DNA of 64,000 nucleotides, from NCBI GenBank assembly GCA_002269645.1, contig NIVC01000975.1, positions 62,001-126,000 on the forward strand. The letters are read 5' to 3'. Made by a program: the position numbers and the translations under genes. This DNA is from Macrostomum lignano. Lineage: Eukaryota. Below are positions 53,954 to 64,000 of the stretch, in pieces. How positions within the stretch are numbered: position 1 is the stretch's first letter; each line of letters opens with the position of its first letter. The notes below the pieces were generated by a model. The model did no database searches. It was given only the letters and a program-made list of their open reading frames with translations, and was not told the DNA's origin.

Positions 53954-56900
53954 ATGGCAACCTGTATAGTGAAGCTGCGCGCCTTCTCGGGCGCCCAGTC
54001 GGAGACTCCGCCCTGTTTCCTGTTGCAAATCGATGAGTTTAAACTGCTGCTGGACTGCGGCTGGGACTCCAGCTTCAAGGCTGACTATGTTGAGCAATTG
54101 AAGCCAGTTACTAAGGAGATCGATGCCGTGCTGTTGAGCCACTCGGATCCGTTCTACATCGGCGCTCTGCCCTACCTGGTAGGCAGGTGCGGCCTGACCT
54201 GCCCAATCTACTCCACCGTCCCGGTGCGCCGCATGGGCCAGATGATGCTGTACGACCTGCACGCCTCGCATGCCACCGTGGAAGAGTTCAACTTGTTCAG
54301 CCTTGACGATATCGACGCCGCATTCGACCGGGTGCACCAGTTGAAGTACCAGCAGACGGTCACCTTCGAGGGCAAAGGTCACGGCATCGCCATCACGCCG
54401 CTGCCTGCCGGGCACAGTCTGGGCGCCACACTGTGGAAGATAGTGGACGGCGAGGAGGAGATTGTGTACGCCCTGGGCTACAACCACAAGAAGGAGCGGC
54501 ACCTGAACGGAGCCAGCTTTGATTTGACATTCCGACCATCGCTGCTCATCACCGACTGCGCCAACATGCTGTACAACCAGCGCCGACGACGCGCCAGAGA
54601 TGAACAGCTGATGACATCGATTCTTGGCACCCTGCGGGATGGCGGCAACGTGCTGATTGCTACCGACACTGCGGGACGATGCCTGGAGCTGACTCACCTG
54701 CTGGAGCAGCTGTGGCAGAATCAGCAATCCGGCTTGATGGCCTACAGTCTGGCGCTGTTGAATTGCGTTGCTCATAATGTTGTTGAGCATGCCAAGTCTC
54801 AGGTTGAGTGGATGAGCGATCGGGTTACCAAGCAGTTCGAGCTTAGCAGAGATAATCCGTTTAATTTTCGGTATCTGCACGTTTGTCACAGCCTGCAGGT
54901 GAGAGTCTGGATTGCTAATCTAGTCAGTTTGGATATGCTGGATTAGAGGTGGATTGCTAATCTAGTCAGCTTAGATATGCTGGATTAGAGGTGGATTGCT
55001 AATCTAGTCAGTTTGGATATGCTGGATTAGAGGTGGATTGCTAATCTAGTCAGTTTGGATATGGTAGATTACAGTTGGATTGCTAATCTAGTCAGTTTGG
55101 ATATGGTGGATATGGATTAGAGATGGATTGCTAATCTAGTAGATATTGATTAGGTATAGAGGTGGATTGCTAATCTAGTCAGTTTGGATTAGGCATTAGA
55201 GATGGATTGCTAATCTAGTCAATATTGATTAGGCATTAGAGGTGGATTGCTAATCTAGTAGATATTGATTAGGTATAGAGGTGGATTGCTAATCTAGTCA
55301 GTTTGGATTAGGCATTAGAGGTGGATTGCTAATCTAGCCAACGCAAATTCCAAAACCGCAGGACCTGGCCCGAGTGCGCGAGCCCCGAGTGGTCCTGGCC
55401 TCCCAGGCCGACCTGGACTGGGGCTTCACCAGGCAGCTGTTCCAGCAGTGGGCTGGCGCCGAGAACAACGCCATCATCCTGACTCAGCGCAGCCCGCCAG
55501 GCAGCCTTGCCCGACACCTCATCGATAATCGGAATGTGCGGCATGTGAGTCCTTCGAATGGGATAAACAGTGGCCCATCAAAGGATTAGATGGGGATTAA
55601 CAGTGGCCCATCAAAGGGTTAGATGAGGATTAACGGTGGCCCATCAAAGGGTTAGATGAGGATTAAGCGCGGCCCATCAAAGGATTAGATGGGGATTGAC
55701 AGTGGCCAATCAAAGGGTTAGATAAGGATTAAGCGCGGCCCATCAAAGGATTAGATGAGGATTAACAGTGGCCCATCAAAGGGTTAGATGAGGATTAAGC
55801 GCGGCCCATCAAAGGATTAGATGGGGATTAACAGCGGCTTATCAAAGGATTAGGGGAAGATTAACAGCGGCCCTTCAAAGGATGAAGGACCTGAATTCAA
55901 TGCTGCAGAATCCGATATCAGATAAGCCGCATTCCTCTCAGGTGCAAATCGAAGTCAAACGAAAGGTGCGCCTCGAGGGCGCCGAGCTGGAGGCCCTGCA
56001 GCGAACCAAGCGCCCTCATGCCGCCGCCGCCGCCTCCTCAGCAGCACCTGGCGCCGCTGGCGACCCCGTCGACGGCCTTGACGACGAATCCAGCGACGAC
56101 GAAGACGTCGACAAGGACGACCCGATGAACGGCAGCGTCGGCGGTGTCGGCGGCCTGAGCAGCGCTGCTGGCGCTGCTGGCGGGGGCGCGGGCGCCGGAT
56201 CGAGCCTGAGTTCGAATCTGCTCACCGCGGCATCGCCGCACGACATCCTGCCGAATCCGAGCGCTGCCAAGCGGGCCGCCCAGCATCAGCAGAGGCAGCT
56301 GCATCAGCTGCATCATCTGCATCAACAGCAGCAGCAACTCGTCTATCCTCTTGTTGAGTTCAGGTAAATGATTCAGATCCTCGAATCCCACACCCTCAAA
56401 TCCCAGATCCTAAAATCCCAAATCCTCAAATGCCAGATCCTCAAATCCCAGATCCTTAAATCCTACATCATCAAATCCCAAATCCTCAAATCCTAAATCC
56501 TTAAATCCCACATGCATAAATCCCACATTCATAAATCCGAAATCCTCAAATCCCACATCCTCCAATCCCAGATCCTGAAATCCTACATCGTCAACTCCCA
56601 GATCCTTAAATTTCAGATCCTTAAATCCCAGATTCTCAAATCCCAGCTCCTCAATTCTAGATTCTCAAATCCCAGCTCCTCAAAAACCAGATCCTTAAAT
56701 TTCAGATCCTTAAATCCCAGATTCTCAAATCCCAGCTCCTCAATTCTAGATTCTCAAATCCCAGCTCCTCAAAAACCAGATCCTTAAATCCCAGATTCTC
56801 AAATCCCCGATCCTCAAATCCCAGATCCTTAAATCCTACATCATCAAATCCCAGATTCTCAAATCCCAGATTCTCAAATCCCAGATTCTCAAATCTCAAA

Positions 56901-57936
56901 TCCTCGAATCCTACATCCTTAAATCCCGCATCCTTAAATCCCACACCCATAGATCCCAGATCATCAAATCCCAGATCCTCAGATTCCAGCTCCTCAAATC
57001 CCATACCCTCAAATCCCACATCCTTATCTTAAAGTAATTAATTATTCAGTTCCAATTTCAACCGCTGCAATCCTCCCCACTTATTGAAATCCCATTAACA
57101 TCCATTGCAGGCCGACTTTCGATGACTACGGCGAGCCGGTGGACCCCAACGTGTTCAACGCCCTGTTCGCGCCGTCCGCAGTTGCCGACTTGCCCGACGG
57201 CGGTCGGGGCCGCAACACGGCCGCCCTGGCAGCCGCAGCGGCTGCCGCAGCCGCCGCAAAGGCCGCCGCCGAGAAGCGGGCCGCCAGAGACGCCGAGCCG
57301 CCCTCAAAATGCCTGGTCGAACAGGTCGACGTCGACATTCGGTGCACGGTCGCTTTCATCGACTTCGAAGGTCGATCAGACGGCGACGCGGTCAAGAAGA
57401 TTGTGTCGACGTTAAAGCCGCGCGAGACTGTGCTGGTGCTGGGCAGCCGGGATGCCACCGACCACCTGGCGGAGTTCTGCCGCACCAACATGGGCCTGGC
57501 GCCGGAGCGGATCCACACGCCAGCCAATGGCGAAACAGTTGACGTCACCAAGGAGGCGCACATCTACCAGGCCCGGGTGAAGGACTCGCTGATCTCCAGC
57601 CTGACATTCTTCCCGCTAGGCGAATACGAGCTCGCCTGGGTTGACGCCAGCATCCATCTGGAGGGTCCGACCGAGCAGCCGACTCTGGTGCCGTGGAAGT
57701 CCGGCAGGCCGCCAGACCACAAGACTGTGTTCATCGGCGAGCCCAAGCTGCACGGCGTGAAGCAGCGACTGCAGGAGATCGGCATGACCGCCGAGTTCCA
57801 GGGCGGAGTGCTGGTGGTCAACGGCAGGGTGGCGGTGAAGCGGACCGAAGCCGGGCGGCTGCTGATTGAAGGCGCCTGCAGCGAGGACTACTTCCGGGTG
57901 CGGGAGCTGGTGTACAGTCAGTACGCCATTCTGTAA
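53954..57936 (+). CDS. CPSF2: Cleavage and polyadenylation specificity factor subunit 2 (CPSF100), ~791 aa
   Basis: Exons 53954-54898, 55362-55544, 55942-56363, 57111-57936 join in frame. Motifs [48 protein letters not shown] and the C-terminal [17 protein letters not shown]. Confidence 0.96.
54910..55337. repeat. ~42-bp array (gaggtggattgctaatctagtcagtttggat...), CPSF2 intron 1
   Basis: Seen directly. Confidence 0.9.
55560..55880. repeat. ~33-bp array (ggattagatggggattaacagtggcccatcaaa), CPSF2 intron 2
   Basis: Seen directly. Confidence 0.9.
56385..57020 (+). repeat. aaatcccagatcctc-type degenerate array, CPSF2 intron 3
   Basis: A related inverted array lies at 58225-58745. Confidence 0.88.
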
Positions 57937-59260: not shown

Positions 59261-60414
59261 TGATAGTATGTATATATCCTAATTACCCCTGTCAGTGTCA
59301 GCCTCGTGTGCGTGTCACTAGCGCTGGATTTGTCCACATTCATGGCCAAGTCATGTATTTTGAAGCAGATACATGTAGTATTCCAACCACAGAACTTCTG
59401 GAAGAACTGGTCAAACTGGCAGATCTCCCCCACATTGACCTCCCAGACGGGTCCTTTAGAGACACATCCATGTGCTCGTATTTTCGAACATGATGTTTAG
59501 CTCTTGCTCAAATTAAGCAAGCGCTCAATTAGCAGCGAGTGCAATCAATCGGACAGTTGAGTCGCAGATTGCTGTCAGTGTTTAATAAACTCCATCCTGA
59601 CCTGACATCAACGCCCAGCGATCAAGAGGGCGACACACACCGTCTACCGGATCGGTGAGTTTTGCAACAAATCGTGCGCATGCAGTCACCTCGGAGTAGG
59701 AAAAATGCATTCGTTACTAATGCTTATTTACTCATCACTCGACTCTCACCAACTTTGATTGCAGAAAACTACAAGCCAGTGACTGCACAGAGTGACTCAA
59801 TTTCTGTCCATTGCCTGAACAGCTGCAATAGCTTCGGGTGTCGGCTAAAATTGATGATGAGCACTGCACAGACTTAAAGTACACTTGTAATGACCGCTTG
59901 TTGAATAGATTATTCAGACGCAGCCGGATTGCTCGGCTGCTATCGTCTCTGCAAGTGACCTTGTTCACCAGCCGAAAACTTATTTTTGTCTCATCACGGG
60001 ATGGCAGCAGCATTCTACGGCTTGCGCAGCACTGACCTGACCGCCAGTCAATCTGCTCCTTCGCCACCGCTAACGGCATTATGCGACTATGTTCTTATTT
60101 GATATTCATAAAGCTTTTCGTTTAGAAAAAAATTCTAAGTCCGTTTTATACCTCTACGAATATAGTAAAATGGTCGTGAAATAGGTACATGCAGCTGCAT
60201 GTACATGTACAGTATGTTAAGTAAATACTGAAAGTTTGCGTACATGTATGTACAAATTGTCGCTGTTCAGCATTCCTAATATTCTTAAACTACGGGTATG
60301 AGTATACTCGCGTCTAAGTCAAGTGAACAAATGATACAAAAATCAATATCTATAAAGTAATTATGTCCTATAAGTAGAAGGCATGAGGGGGCTTCTGGGA
60401 CAAAATTTTTCACT

Positions 60415-60630
60415 TCCTCCATAATCCACCTAAATCCATCCATATTATTCCTGACAGAATCAGAAAAAAAAGGGGGTCGCACTCGCTCACAAAACGTCCT
60501 CCATAATCCCATTAAATCCATCCATATTATCCCCGACAGAATCATGAAAAAGTGGAGGGGTCGCACTTGCTCCGAAAACTTCGAACATAATCGTATTAAA
60601 TCCATCCATATTATCCCTGACAGAATCAGT
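60415..60630. repeat. ~82-85 bp imperfect direct repeat, ~2.5 copies (taaatccatccatattat..ctgacagaatca core)
   Basis: cataat-anchored copies begin near 60420, 60502 and 60586. Confidence 0.8.
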
Positions 60631-60826
60631 GCATAACAGGTGTCCACTAACACCTGTTATGCTCATTGACACCGACATCCACCCATAGCATCTTCGAGAC
60701 AATCAGAAAATAATCTGCATTCTTCTTCCCACATTCAATTCGCAACACGAAACCAGATCCCAAAGACTTTAAACCCCCTAACCCAGGGTCCTTACCCTTT
60801 GAAAAAAAAATAAATTCTCAATAAAA

Positions 60827-61069
60827 ATGTTTCCAGTTGTCTCTCCAGGTTCCTATTATACTCAGCCTCATCCATTGTACAAATCCAAGTACCGATGCAA
60901 ACTAGAATGCAGCGAGTACATGAGAAAATATTGGCCCGACGTTCATATCAATGTCCCTAATATTAATCTAGCTCTCCAAAGACACTGGTTTCATAAGTAT
61001 GGAGTAACCTATGTAAAAGATTACGACAGCTACTATAACTTTGCAGAAATCATTAAGCAATTGCGTTAA
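60827..61069 (+). CDS. Small 80-aa ORF of the Polinton, unknown function
   Basis: aataaaaATG context like the other element genes. Tyr/His-rich. No recognisable domain. Confidence 0.45.
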   Translation: MFPVVSPGSYYTQPHPLYKSKYRCKLECSEYMRKYWPDVHINVPNINLALQRHWFHKYGVTYVKDYDSYYNFAEIIKQLR

Positions 61070-61174
61070 AAAACTGAAAGGCCAAAATCGTTTTCATTTT
61101 GGCCTCGCGCGAGGCCGAAATCCTTTGCATTCTGGCCTTCACTCGAGACGGAATTCTTCCCCGGCTGGGCTCAG

Positions 61175-61699
61175 TTAAAGTGAAAATCTCTCTCCCCCCA
61201 CGCGCGCTCTCTCTACCCCCAGCTCTTTCAGCAGTCTTCCCAATTTCTTGTTAGGAGCACACAAAATAAACCCTGCTTCCAAGCCTCCGCCCTCTCTTTC
61301 CGCACACCCGCCCTCTCTCCCCAAACACCCACCTTCGCCTTGAACCCCCAAACCCAACTTTGCCTTACTAAAAATAACAGCTTTAACTAGCTTCCGAGCA
61401 ATCGACTCACGAAATCCGCTTTAAGCCCCTATATTGTCTAGTCTCTTAAGCATTTCTTTGTCCCAGCGATTCTTCTCCTCAGGAAAATCTCTATATTTAA
61501 CATCGTGCCACATGCAGACAGAGTCTAGCTCGTTCACAGGCTCATGCCCAGGATGTGGATTATTGTTTTTATCTAACTGTATTTCAAGTGGATTCAAAGG
61601 CCCGCAATATTTATAGCCGGGAAGTGTCCAGCCTTTGTTTGGATGAGGAAGCTTTTCTATCAGTCCATGTGAATCTAACTTACCACCAGAGCGTTGCAT
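61175..61699 (-). pseudogene. Parvovirus-type phospholipase A2 (PLA2X-like virion protein) interrupted by an in-frame TAA at 61421-61423
   Basis: TLPGYKYCGPLN Ca-loop, HDVKY catalytic motif and WDKEML. After the TAA the same frame continues SGFRESIARKLVKAVIFSKAKLGLG to a stop at 61175. Confidence 0.8.
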
Positions 61700-61729
61700 T
61701 ATTTTATTTTAAATTTTCTTTTTCAAAAA

Positions 61730-62737
61730 ATGACAGATCAGAAACTTAAAAAACTCTACTACAGCGACAAAGGATTCTTTGTAGGAAAAAATGCAGTCAC
61801 CAAACTCGCAGAACTAAGTAAGGAACCAAAAGCTAAAGTAGAAAAGTGGCTCTCTAAGCAGGCTGTCTTTCAAGTCTATTTCCCACCAGTAAAATTTACA
61901 AGACCTCACTTTAGCATCTATAAACCTAATGAAGCGCACCAAGCAGATCTTTTGTTTCTCCCCAACGACTCAGGCTACAAGTATGCTCTTACAATTATTG
62001 ACATTGCTTCCAGATATAAGGAAGCTCGCCCACTCAAGACGAAGAAGTCAGAAGCAGTTGCAGCCGCCCTCCAAGATATTTATAAAAACTCACCCCTTAG
62101 TTACCCTGAAATCTTTATGACGGACCCGGGTAAAGAATTCATGGGTGCAGTGATATCACTTCTACATAAGTATGACACAAAAATTCGCTATGGAAGAACT
62201 GAGCTCCACAGAGACCAGGCTTTTGTGGAAAGATTCAATCTAACTCTAGCCAAGAGGCTATTCACTAAGCAGACAGCAGAGGAGCTGAAACTAAAAGGTG
62301 GCCAATACTATACCAAGTGGACAGACCGGCTCCCCACTGTTATAGAGCAACTGAACAATGAAGTCACGCGCATGACTGGATTGAAACCGTCCCATGCAAT
62401 TAAACAAGACACTGTCGAACTTAAGTCATCTCATAGAACAGACACCTCAAACTACCCTAAGCTTCCAGGAGTTGAATCACCATACATACTGACAAACTCT
62501 GAGTTTCTACGCTTTTTATATCTACCTGGAGAGCTAGAGAAAGACACCAAAAGAAGAGCTACAGATCCATACTTCAGCCTTGATGTACATAAAATAGACA
62601 GACATTTTACCTCCGACTCTGGAGACTATTACTTTTTATCTCAAACCTTTAACCCTAAATCCCCCACGCGGTCATTCACTAGAGCTGAACTCCAGCCGTA
62701 CCAGCTGACACGGAAATTAATTAAAATATTAAAATAA
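61730..62737 (+). CDS. Retroviral-like (rve/c-integrase) DDE integrase, ~335 aa
   Basis: HQADLLFLP (D), YALTIIDIASRY, FMTDPGKEF (D), AFVERFNLTL (E), WTDRLPTVIEQLNN. The likely start is aaaaaATG at 61730 rather than the track's 61694. Confidence 0.92.
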   Translation: MTDQKLKKLYYSDKGFFVGKNAVTKLAELSKEPKAKVEKWLSKQAVFQVYFPPVKFTRPHFSIYKPNEAHQADLLFLPNDSGYKYALTIIDIASRYKEARPLKTKKSEAVAAALQDIYKNSPLSYPEIFMTDPGKEFMGAVISLLHKYDTKIRYGRTELHRDQAFVERFNLTLAKRLFTKQTAEELKLKGGQYYTKWTDRLPTVIEQLNNEVTRMTGLKPSHAIKQDTVELKSSHRTDTSNYPKLPGVESPYILTNSEFLRFLYLPGELEKDTKRRATDPYFSLDVHKIDRHFTSDSGDYYFLSQTFNPKSPTRSFTRAELQPYQLTRKLIKILK

Positions 62738-62740
62738 AAA

Positions 62741-63199
62741 ATGACAAAGATTGAAACCAGAACCATCAATAAACTCAATAAAATCATTGAATCAAAGAGA
62801 CCAGGTCTTATATCAATAAAAGGTGCCAAAGTAAAAGTCGATCCCGTGCAGCAAATAGTTCAATGTAATGAACAAAGACACAGCATCACAGATGAAAAGT
62901 CAGGAGGAATCCTACCATTAGCAGCTCTTATTCCGATCATTGCAGGCGCTGTGAGTGCCGCAGGTGGTGTAGCTGGAGGTGTAGCAACTGCTGTTAAAGC
63001 TGGGAATGATAGAGCCCACCAGCTAGAATTGCAAAAGATTGCAAGAGACAAAGGTATAACAATTAAGGCAGGAGAGGGCTGCCCTGAGGGCTGCCCGGAT
63101 CGTGATGATTGTGAGAATGAAAATTCTATAAGCAAGTCTGACATTGTCAAAGCTATCATGACACTGCACAATGCTGGGTTTACAATAATGCGCATGTGA
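62741..63199 (+). CDS. 152-aa ORF with an adenovirus pX/mu-precursor-like hydrophobic segment (putative core or membrane-active virion protein)
   Basis: KSGGILPLAALIPIIAGAVSAAGGVAGGVATAV closely resembles adenovirus pX RGGILPLLIPLIAAAIGAVPGIA. Starts 3 nt after the integrase stop. Confidence 0.7.
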   Translation: MTKIETRTINKLNKIIESKRPGLISIKGAKVKVDPVQQIVQCNEQRHSITDEKSGGILPLAALIPIIAGAVSAAGGVAGGVATAVKAGNDRAHQLELQKIARDKGITIKAGEGCPEGCPDRDDCENENSISKSDIVKAIMTLHNAGFTIMRM

Positions 63200-63323
63200 T
63201 GAGGTTTAAAACCCCACTTTATCCAGCTTCATAAACCTAACACTACTTATAGGATGTAGAAACAGTTCAACTTTTCTATCAGGGTGGTCACCCTCAAAAT
63301 TTTTTTTTATTTTATAGAAAAAA

Positions 63324-64000
63324 ATGCCAAAAGCTAATCCAGCAAAAGATTTAGTCAACAGATATTTTTCAAAAGGCGTCTCATTTCAAGACAAAAGTAA
63401 TTTACTAAGAGAAGCATGTAAACAAAAGTTTAACACCGACCCTGGTCACCTGGGAAGCTATGAAAAACAGTTGGAAATCATCAATCAATTAGAATCCAAC
63501 CAGTATGCGCCTATACAAAATCCTGCAAAGGAACACCAAGAGAGGAGTCGCAACTTAGTTAACAAATACGAAACTCTCACTGGTGAAAAAGCAAAGTACC
63601 CACAAAATAAGCAGGAACAAGAGAAATTAGAGCAATTAATCCATTTAAAAGAGTCGGAGCTTGCCATTGAAGAGATTAATTTTGCACAGAGAAAGTTTAC
63701 AGAACATTACATCGAGTACACAATCCCAATTAAGGATACCACCGCAAACATCTACGACTATAAAGACAGCATCCAATCAGTTGTTGATCACACACTCAAA
63801 ACACGCAAGACCTTTAAACTACAGATATCATTCAAGATTGCATTTTATATGCCTGCAAAACCCACTGAGCATCTCGAGTATTACATGACAACAAAGGCAA
63901 AGCCATTCACCCCTACAGACACACTGGATCCTTTCCTTCAAGATGTCACTAAGAAAATTGAAGCGTTTACATCCAGAGGTTCCGGATGGGTCGTAGGAGG
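63324..64000 (+). CDS. 5' part of a probable protein-primed DNA polymerase B (pPolB), truncated by the window end
   Basis: aaaaaaATG at 63324 and 225 stop-free codons to the window end (absent from the ORF track), ending in KIEAFTSRGSGWVV, the GSGW motif seen in Polinton pPolB N-termini. The catalytic domains lie outside the window. Confidence 0.7.
   Translation, partial: MPKANPAKDLVNRYFSKGVSFQDKSNLLREACKQKFNTDPGHLGSYEKQLEIINQLESNQYAPIQNPAKEHQERSRNLVNKYETLTGEKAKYPQNKQEQEKLEQLIHLKESELAIEEINFAQRKFTEHYIEYTIPIKDTTANIYDYKDSIQSVVDHTLKTRKTFKLQISFKIAFYMPAKPTEHLEYYMTTKAKPFTPTDTLDPFLQDVTKKIEAFTSRGSGWVVG

What the first reader, a model, noticed from the sequence alone, without database searches (positions are those of the whole stretch)
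60415..64000. Endogenous Polinton/adintovirus end with entry-protein, integrase and polymerase genes
Seen: tightly packed ORF80 (+), PLA2 (-), integrase (+), pX-like (+) and pPolB-like (+), with an intact DDE triad. Known: Polintons/Mavericks encode pPolB, rve integrase, adenain-like protease, packaging ATPase and double jelly-roll capsids. The adintovirus-type members carry parvovirus-like PLA2 and adenovirus-like core peptides. Inference: a young, possibly near-intact virus lineage in this (probably flatworm) host, with capsid genes expected downstream.
Basis: partly seen in the sequence, partly recalled or inferred. Interest (0 to 1): 0.7.

Follow-up and report, generated by a model that had tools for sequence, protein, structure and literature searches.

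The report
Polinton copy folded into a palindrome
This is one end of a virus-like jumping element (a Polinton) with well over a hundred close copies in an animal genome; unlike its sisters, this copy has no capsid genes in the assembly, where its second half mirrors the first, which is likely a real chromosome rearrangement but may be an assembly error.

Summary
The five genes are real, and the element is a Polinton/adintovirus insertion. It starts at 60373 with a 6-bp target duplication, and a homologous empty site exists on another contig. Its family is large (150 of 150 scored PLA2 matches at 92% identity or more). Three annotated sisters carry protease, packaging ATPase and a double jelly-roll capsid gene. 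Beyond the window the polymerase breaks off before motif C, and the 11.5-kb element turns back as an inverted copy of its own left arm (3 differences in about 5.25 kb, 493-bp loop). No structural gene lies within 26 kb downstream. Its PLA2 is also cut short. Whether the fold-back is real (about 65%) or an assembly chimera (about 30%) is unresolved; the read test was uninformative. ORF80 lies inside the terminal repeat, is under purifying selection and has no detectable relative. If real, the copy resembles maize Mu killer and could make silencing hairpin RNA (untested). The scan has noted Polintons on other DNA of this genome. Overall: a new member of a known kind, low to moderate interest.

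The parts
60367..60372 (+). Left copy of the 6-bp target-site duplication (CCTATA); the right copy lies beyond the window at C975:133903-133908
   Evidence: Same hexamer follows the far end; single copy at the homologous empty site C647:382988-382993
60373..61063 (+). Terminal inverted repeat, about 690 bp, starting AGTAG, with 2.5 copies of an 84-bp unit at 60420-60629; tip of type A
60827..61069 (+). ORF80: 80-aa gene inside the terminal repeat, no detectable relative, predicted three short helices (low confidence)
   Evidence: Open at 78-80 aa in 14 of 20 ends examined; crude pN/pS 0.29 over 19 variants; no homologue; pLDDT 58
61421..61699 (-). Parvovirus-type PLA2 gene, cut short by a premature stop after codon 92; no intron
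   Evidence: Pfam PF08398 E 1.7e-13; open frames longer at the 148 other scored places; no Rfam hit
61730..62737 (+). rve integrase, open frame, D73-D132-E167
   Evidence: Pfam PF00665 E 5.4e-10
62741..63199 (+). Stand-alone adenovirus pX (mu)-like core protein gene
   Evidence: Pfam PF05829 E 4.5e-7, residues 52-84
63324..64000 (+). Start of the protein-primed family B polymerase gene. It goes on beyond the window to C975:128419 (Exo I-III and motif A in frame, endonuclease VII-like insert, frame break near C975:128010, motif B in another frame, motif C absent)
60680..64000 (+). Window part of the arm that is repeated in inverted form beyond the window: the turn is at C975:128419/128420 after a 493-bp unduplicated loop, and the mirror arm runs to the far end at C975:133902, with a tip of type B
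   Evidence: 1 mismatch in 3582 bp, plus 1 mismatch and one 1-base indel in about 1670 bp; tips 90% alike; 1 base of microhomology

Best explanation
A Polinton of a young, high-copy adintovirus-type family inserted here with a 6-bp target duplication, and this copy most likely lost its capsid arm afterwards when a break in the polymerase gene was repaired by folding back and copying its own left arm. Shown: the insertion, the family's full gene set in sister copies, and the 11,530-bp palindrome without structural genes in the assembly. Inferred: the founder was a sister-like element of about 15 kb with two different tips. A broken end near C975:128419 would have annealed to the left arm near C975:127926 and copied about 5.2 kb back, then rejoined the surviving outer part of the right terminal repeat. 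The copy can make neither a whole polymerase nor capsids. It keeps both ends and two open integrase genes, so it could move only with sister proteins. For the family, function follows established Polinton biology and was not tested here: protein-primed replication, integrase-driven insertion, ATPase packaging into a jelly-roll capsid, PLA2 and pX as predicted entry and core proteins.
For: Target duplication at both ends, and an empty homologous site with collinear flanks on both sides. The arms differ at 3 places in about 5.25 kb while the nearest other integrase copy is 99% alike. Both arms share the copy-private PLA2 stop and all but one of the substitutions that set this copy apart from nine sisters over the stretch compared, so the mirror was templated on this copy after it diverged. 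The far tip is not a mirror of the near tip (90%) but a type found at 44 places, beside a whole candidate minor-capsid gene in 10 of 30 fetched loci. A full-length sister with matched target duplication (C110) has type B at one end only. Sisters show other end rearrangements: terminal repeats of 455-1125 bp, reaching into the minor-capsid gene in C1304 and C1076, and inversions in C1462 and C1098. Inference: reads anchored in the unique right flank should have pulled in a capsid arm if one were there.
Against: No independent sequence shows the junction: it occurs once in the assembly, and near-identical arms are also what a fold-back read would leave. It is the only mirrored pair within 20 kb among the 150 scored PLA2 places, so there is no second case to lean on. 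The junction has only 1 base of microhomology, which is little for fold-back priming. The order of events is inferred, not shown.
Confidence: 0.55

Rival explanations
1. The palindrome is an assembly chimera. The real locus holds an ordinary full-length copy, and a fold-back or amplification-chimeric read replaced the capsid arm with a mirror of the left arm, joined to the true right flank through the terminal repeat.
For: Arms almost identical. The junction is unique in the assembly. Fold-back artefacts are documented in long reads (PMC12870357, passages; PMC6218980, search listing only). High-copy repeats of about 15 kb are hard to assemble (general knowledge).
Against: The loop is 493 bp of genuine element sequence, larger than the 200-bp limit by which PMC12870357 defines foldback artefacts; that paper found almost none in three PacBio sets (the technology behind this assembly is unknown to me). 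The far end has its own tip type and the correct flank and target duplication. The contig has no N gap here.
Confidence: 0.3
2. A snap-back defective genome formed by template switching during free protein-primed replication, and was then integrated as such by sister integrase.
For: Exact ends and target duplication fit integration of the molecule as it stands. Terminal repeats of different lengths in sisters show that end copying occurs.
Against: A snap-back product should have identical tips, but these are 90% alike. No second insertion among those scored carries this junction or the private PLA2 stop.
Confidence: 0.1
3. A Ginger/TDD-like integrase transposon with captured viral fragments.
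For: This copy, taken alone, lacks motif C and capsid genes.
Against: The arm is 92-97% identical and collinear with sisters that continue into polymerase motif C, protease, ATPase and capsid genes between the same terminal repeats.
Confidence: 0.01

Closest known systems
Alpha-class adintoviruses / animal Polintons (Starrett et al., PMC8502044; sections 3.1 and 3.2 and supplement passages read)
   Same: pPolB, rve integrase, adenain-like protease, packaging ATPase, double jelly-roll capsid, parvovirus-type PLA2, pX-like protein, terminal repeats, host integration. The best named viral PolB match (Corynactis coral adintovirus) is in the paper's Alpha panel.
   Different: pX is a separate gene rather than the C-terminal part of PLA2X (no pX hit in a 215-aa sister PLA2). 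The capsid protein has only 9 detectable relatives. A coding gene sits inside the terminal repeat. This copy is capsid-less and palindromic.
Polintons/Mavericks as defined in PMC10748475 (passages read)
   Same: 13-25 kb, 100-1500-bp terminal repeats, 5-8-bp target duplications; sisters are mostly 14-16 kb with 455-1125-bp repeats and 6-bp duplications. Nuclease domains inserted in pPolB are known (HNH, VSR); here an endonuclease VII-like one, shared with the Corynactis protein.
   Different: This copy is 11.5 kb and in effect has 5.25-kb inverted arms.
Mu killer of maize (PMC3440606; start of abstract in the search listing only)
   Same: A transposon derivative with two terminal repeats and a partial inverted duplication of its own genes.
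   Different: Mu killer silences its family, by a proposed hairpin RNA. Here neither transcription nor small RNA is shown, and the structure itself is unconfirmed.
Polinton-driven rearrangements at C. elegans eri-6/7 (PMC11414722; passages read)
   Same: Polinton ends and remnants associated with inversions and large deletions after insertion.
   Different: There host exons are inverted between Polinton copies; here the element's own arm is duplicated in inverted form.

Membership tests
Polinton/Maverick | Terminal inverted repeats with a 5-8-bp target-site duplication | tested here: met
   6-bp duplication and empty homologous site. Of six sister loci, three independent ones show matched 6-bp duplications, a fourth repeats one of them, one is ambiguous and one was not parsed; three more matched pairs.
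Polinton/Maverick | rve integrase with DDE triad | tested here: met
Polinton/Maverick | Protein-primed family B polymerase with exonuclease and polymerase motifs (family level) | tested here: met
   Motifs A, B and C in one frame in a sister (motif patterns recalled); 7938 homologues
Autonomous Polinton (this copy) | Complete pPolB | tested here: not met
   Frame break after motif A; motif C absent from all 12 frames searched
Autonomous Polinton (this copy) | Protease, ATPase, major and minor capsid genes between the terminal repeats | tested here: not met
   0 tblastn hits for 4 of 4 proteins in the window and three downstream stretches; control positive. Subject to the assembly caveat.
Adintovirus (family level, sister copies) | Double jelly-roll major capsid protein | tested here: met
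   Pfam PF21738 E 3.1e-5, below its cut-off. The model (pLDDT 53.5) hits jelly-roll capsids in all 25 listed PDB rows, best E 3.4e-10, TM about 0.3.
Adintovirus (family level, sister copies) | Packaging ATPase and adenain-like protease | tested here: met
   Pox_A32 E 7.5e-7, above cut-off; Peptidase_C5 E 3.6e-4, 0.6 bits under cut-off
Adintovirus (family level, sister copies) | Single jelly-roll minor capsid (penton) | tested here: inconclusive
   287-aa ORF beside the major capsid gene; no Pfam or PDB sequence hit; Atlas 0.98 to unnamed viral clusters; not folded
Alpha adintovirus | PolB of the Alpha (OTU + pfam03175) class | tested here: inconclusive
   The best named viral match is an Alpha-panel protein, but no Beta comparator was tested and no tree built. 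PF03175 was not hit, nor by the Alpha-panel protein itself. An OTU-like Cys/His pair is visible in the sequence (motif recalled).
Alpha adintovirus | PLA2X: PLA2 with a C-terminal pX domain | tested here: inconclusive
   PLA2 and pX are both present but as two genes; the one longer sister PLA2 scanned has no pX hit; sister C-termini vary in frame
Adintovirus | Virions or free linear genomes | not testable with these tools
   Only contigs of public runs were available
Mu killer-like silencing locus | Hairpin transcript and small RNAs that silence the family in trans | not testable with these tools
   Only the DNA geometry and polyadenylation-like signals were examined
Group I intron-bearing Polintons noted earlier in this genome | Group I intron in PLA2 and loss of GGNCC sites | tested here: not met
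   0 Rfam matches in 14 loci; 7 GGNCC sites in the arm against 11.3 expected

The most novel reading that the evidence does not exclude
The palindrome is real and acts as a 'Polinton killer'. The polyadenylation-like signal behind pPolB is gone (a sister has one 56 bases after the stop; here the first AATAAA after the turn lies 1.07 kb on). Transcripts from the element's own promoter therefore run through the turn, fold into a hairpin with a stem of 1 kb or more, and feed small RNAs that silence a family of hundreds of endogenous viruses in trans.
Probability: 0.1. Interest if true: 0.7.

Novelty: new member of a known kind. Interest (0 to 1): 0.28.

Why it matters
As a Polinton it is ordinary: such elements are known across animals, and this scan has noted many in this genome. 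Two points add something. First, the copy shows that a capsid-less, palindromic derivative can arise (or be mis-assembled) from a young family. If it is real, its presence/absence difference against an empty homologous site makes a direct test of how an animal starts silencing an endogenous DNA virus, as Mu killer did for maize. Second, the family keeps a small, selected gene without relatives inside its terminal repeat, so a copy can carry it twice. If the mirror is an artefact, it warns that gene content of single Polinton copies in this assembly cannot be taken at face value.

Tried and rejected
Read test of the junction: Logan contigs of 6 of the 24 listed runs were laid on it. No listed piece crossed it, and loose ends there match the ordinary continuation in a sister. 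This is not evidence. 21 of 53 pieces and 409 of 435 were not shown, contigs drop rare variants, and the 20 holding runs contain only 0.61-0.71 of the words, less than the 0.77-0.87 shared with other copies, so this copy's private words seem absent from all of them. No RNA holder is listed. C957 as a second palindrome: rejected (arms 76-99% alike, no shared target duplication). The 8-kb PLA2 pairs are not palindromes: C5061 and C3589 are nested insertions, C1684 and C2806 are same-direction neighbours. ORF80: no Pfam, protein-database or PDB hit; the 4 profile hits are tandem-repeat proteins; Atlas RNase T2 fragments at 0.88 are a lead only; the fold search was uninformative (best Z 4.2, low-confidence model). 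No PolB or integrase tree was built, since the hits carry few names and no Beta comparator. Literature searches showed no description of this family or of a palindromic Polinton. Listings were judged by title and start of abstract, the library lacks most subscription papers and Repbase, and the genus name used was my untested guess. The PMC8502044 supplement was cut when stored, so its sequence and host tables may hold closer relatives.

Full report
Observation. The window is G000:C975:62001-126000. Pfam confirms parvovirus-type PLA2 (E 1.7e-13), rve integrase (5.4e-10) and adenovirus pX (4.5e-7). The integrase has D73, D132 and E167. The polymerase, read on beyond the window, matches 7938 of 7989 scored candidates at E<=1e-20, including Corynactis coral adintovirus PolB (34% over 713 aa), which sits in the Alpha panel of PMC8502044 (supplement passage). 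It carries an endonuclease VII-like insert, as does that protein.

Boundaries. The element begins at 60373; the 39 other listed places in the genome match from about there on (40 of 659 candidates scored). It ends at C975:133902 and is 11,530 bp long. Both ends are flanked by CCTATA. Contig C647 holds the same locus without the element and with one copy of the hexamer, and is collinear on both sides. The insertion is therefore real. It lies 2.4 kb behind a host CPSF2 gene.

The family. 150 of 150 scored places (520 candidates) match the PLA2 at 92% amino-acid identity or more; two of them are this copy, and duplicated haplotypes may inflate the count. The top 40 integrase matches are 92-100% identical. 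Six sister loci with both ends were compared, representing five insertions. Five loci are 14-16 kb and one is 22.5 kb; their terminal repeats are 455-1125 bp long and 88-99.6% alike. The three that I annotated carry, after pPolB, a protease-like gene region, an A32-type ATPase, a major capsid gene and a 287-aa candidate minor capsid gene, whole or in pieces. The capsid model hits only jelly-roll capsids among the 25 PDB rows listed (low-confidence model). Each of the three also shows a frame break in at least one core gene, which may be real or an assembly error. Copies have inserted into one another with a 6-bp duplication.

This copy is different. Downstream of the window there is no protease, ATPase or capsid gene: tblastn finds 0 hits for 4 of 4 proteins in the window and in C975:122001-152000, while a sister control is hit by all four. 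pPolB keeps Exo I-III and motif A, breaks frame near C975:128010, shows motif B in another frame and stops at C975:128419, before motif C. From there the sequence is the reverse complement of the left arm, from C975:127926 back to about window 60680. It differs by 1 mismatch in 3582 bp, plus 1 mismatch and a 1-base indel in about 1670 bp, and leaves a 493-bp loop with 1 base of microhomology at the turn. Both arms carry the premature PLA2 stop that no other scored copy has and all but one of the substitutions that set this copy apart from nine sisters over the stretch compared, so the mirror was made from this copy. The outer 250-320 bp are not mirrored (90% alike). The far tip is a type found at 44 places, beside a whole candidate minor-capsid gene in 10 of 30 loci fetched and a 534-bp piece of it in 2 more, and a full-length sister has that type at one end only. 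It is most simply read as the original right end.

Real or artefact. The simplest biological account is fold-back repair in the chromosome after insertion (0.55). Snap-back before integration fits the unequal tips badly (0.1). An assembly chimera remains possible (0.3): fold-back reads are documented (PMC12870357, passages), and this is the only mirrored pair within 20 kb among the 150 PLA2 places. Against a chimera stand the long genuine loop, the correct right flank and the separate tip. My test with public runs did not decide it (see Tried and rejected).

ORF80. It lies inside the terminal repeat and so can occur at both ends of a copy: it is open at 78-80 aa in 14 of 20 ends examined, shortened in 2, and no start motif was found in 4. 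A crude pN/pS over 19 variants is 0.29 (variants are related, so this is not a formal test). No relative was found by sequence, profile or fold. My best guess is a small regulatory or end-binding protein, which is inference only.

Comparison and novelty. The family works like, and by most tested features belongs to, the animal Polintons/adintoviruses. The Alpha class is likely but not fixed, and pX is a separate gene rather than part of PLA2X (PMC8502044 sections 3.1-3.2). It does not show the group I intron or the GGNCC loss that earlier scan notes report for other Polintons of this genome. It is not the integrase-less half described in other notes either, since it keeps integrase and has a cut polymerase. 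The palindromic shape recalls maize Mu killer (PMC3440606, start of abstract only). Loss of the signal behind pPolB would let a transcript fold into a stem of 1 kb or more, but no RNA evidence exists. Searches showed no report of this family or of a palindromic Polinton within the library's limits. Verdict: new member of a known kind; interest 0.28.

Noticed in passing
L030:1097-2819, L029:6925-8238, L032:746-2711, L056, L067, L037, L027, L054; window 61070-61420: The slot between the gene-side terminal repeat and PLA2 is a variable accessory cassette: empty in this copy, a RING-finger-like ORF (motif recalled) in C1304 and C1604, unrelated ORFs in other sisters.
   Followed up: partly
L028:289-1413 and L031:7996-8868: In two sisters the terminal repeat is extended (1125 and 874 bp) and takes in the 3' end of the candidate minor-capsid gene, so capsid-side end sequence has been copied to the other end.
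   Followed up: partly
L088:6717 and L095:6370 (C5061); L093:6767 (C3589): One Polinton is inserted into the polymerase gene of another, with a 6-bp duplication read at C5061.
   Followed up: partly
L038:8386-9419 (C1462); L060:3227-6902 (C1098): Terminal 1 kb inverted in one sister and a 3.7-kb internal block inverted in another; real or assembly error not tested.
   Followed up: no
C4261:14422-29719 and C1527:3796-26342: The same insertion (same target duplication and flanks) is 15.3 kb on one contig and 22.5 kb on another, the longer one interrupted inside the integrase gene by about 7 kb.
   Followed up: no
window 53954-57936 (+): Host CPSF2 (CPSF100) gene with introns made of tandem repeats; the element sits 2.4 kb behind its stop.
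   Followed up: partly
L022:8522-9199 (+): C2H2 zinc-finger-like ORF (motif recalled) 6.6 kb beyond the far end, in a region collinear with C647.
   Followed up: no
window 1-61330: 100 tandem-repeat rows (periods 3-238, overlapping) cover much of the window.
   Followed up: no
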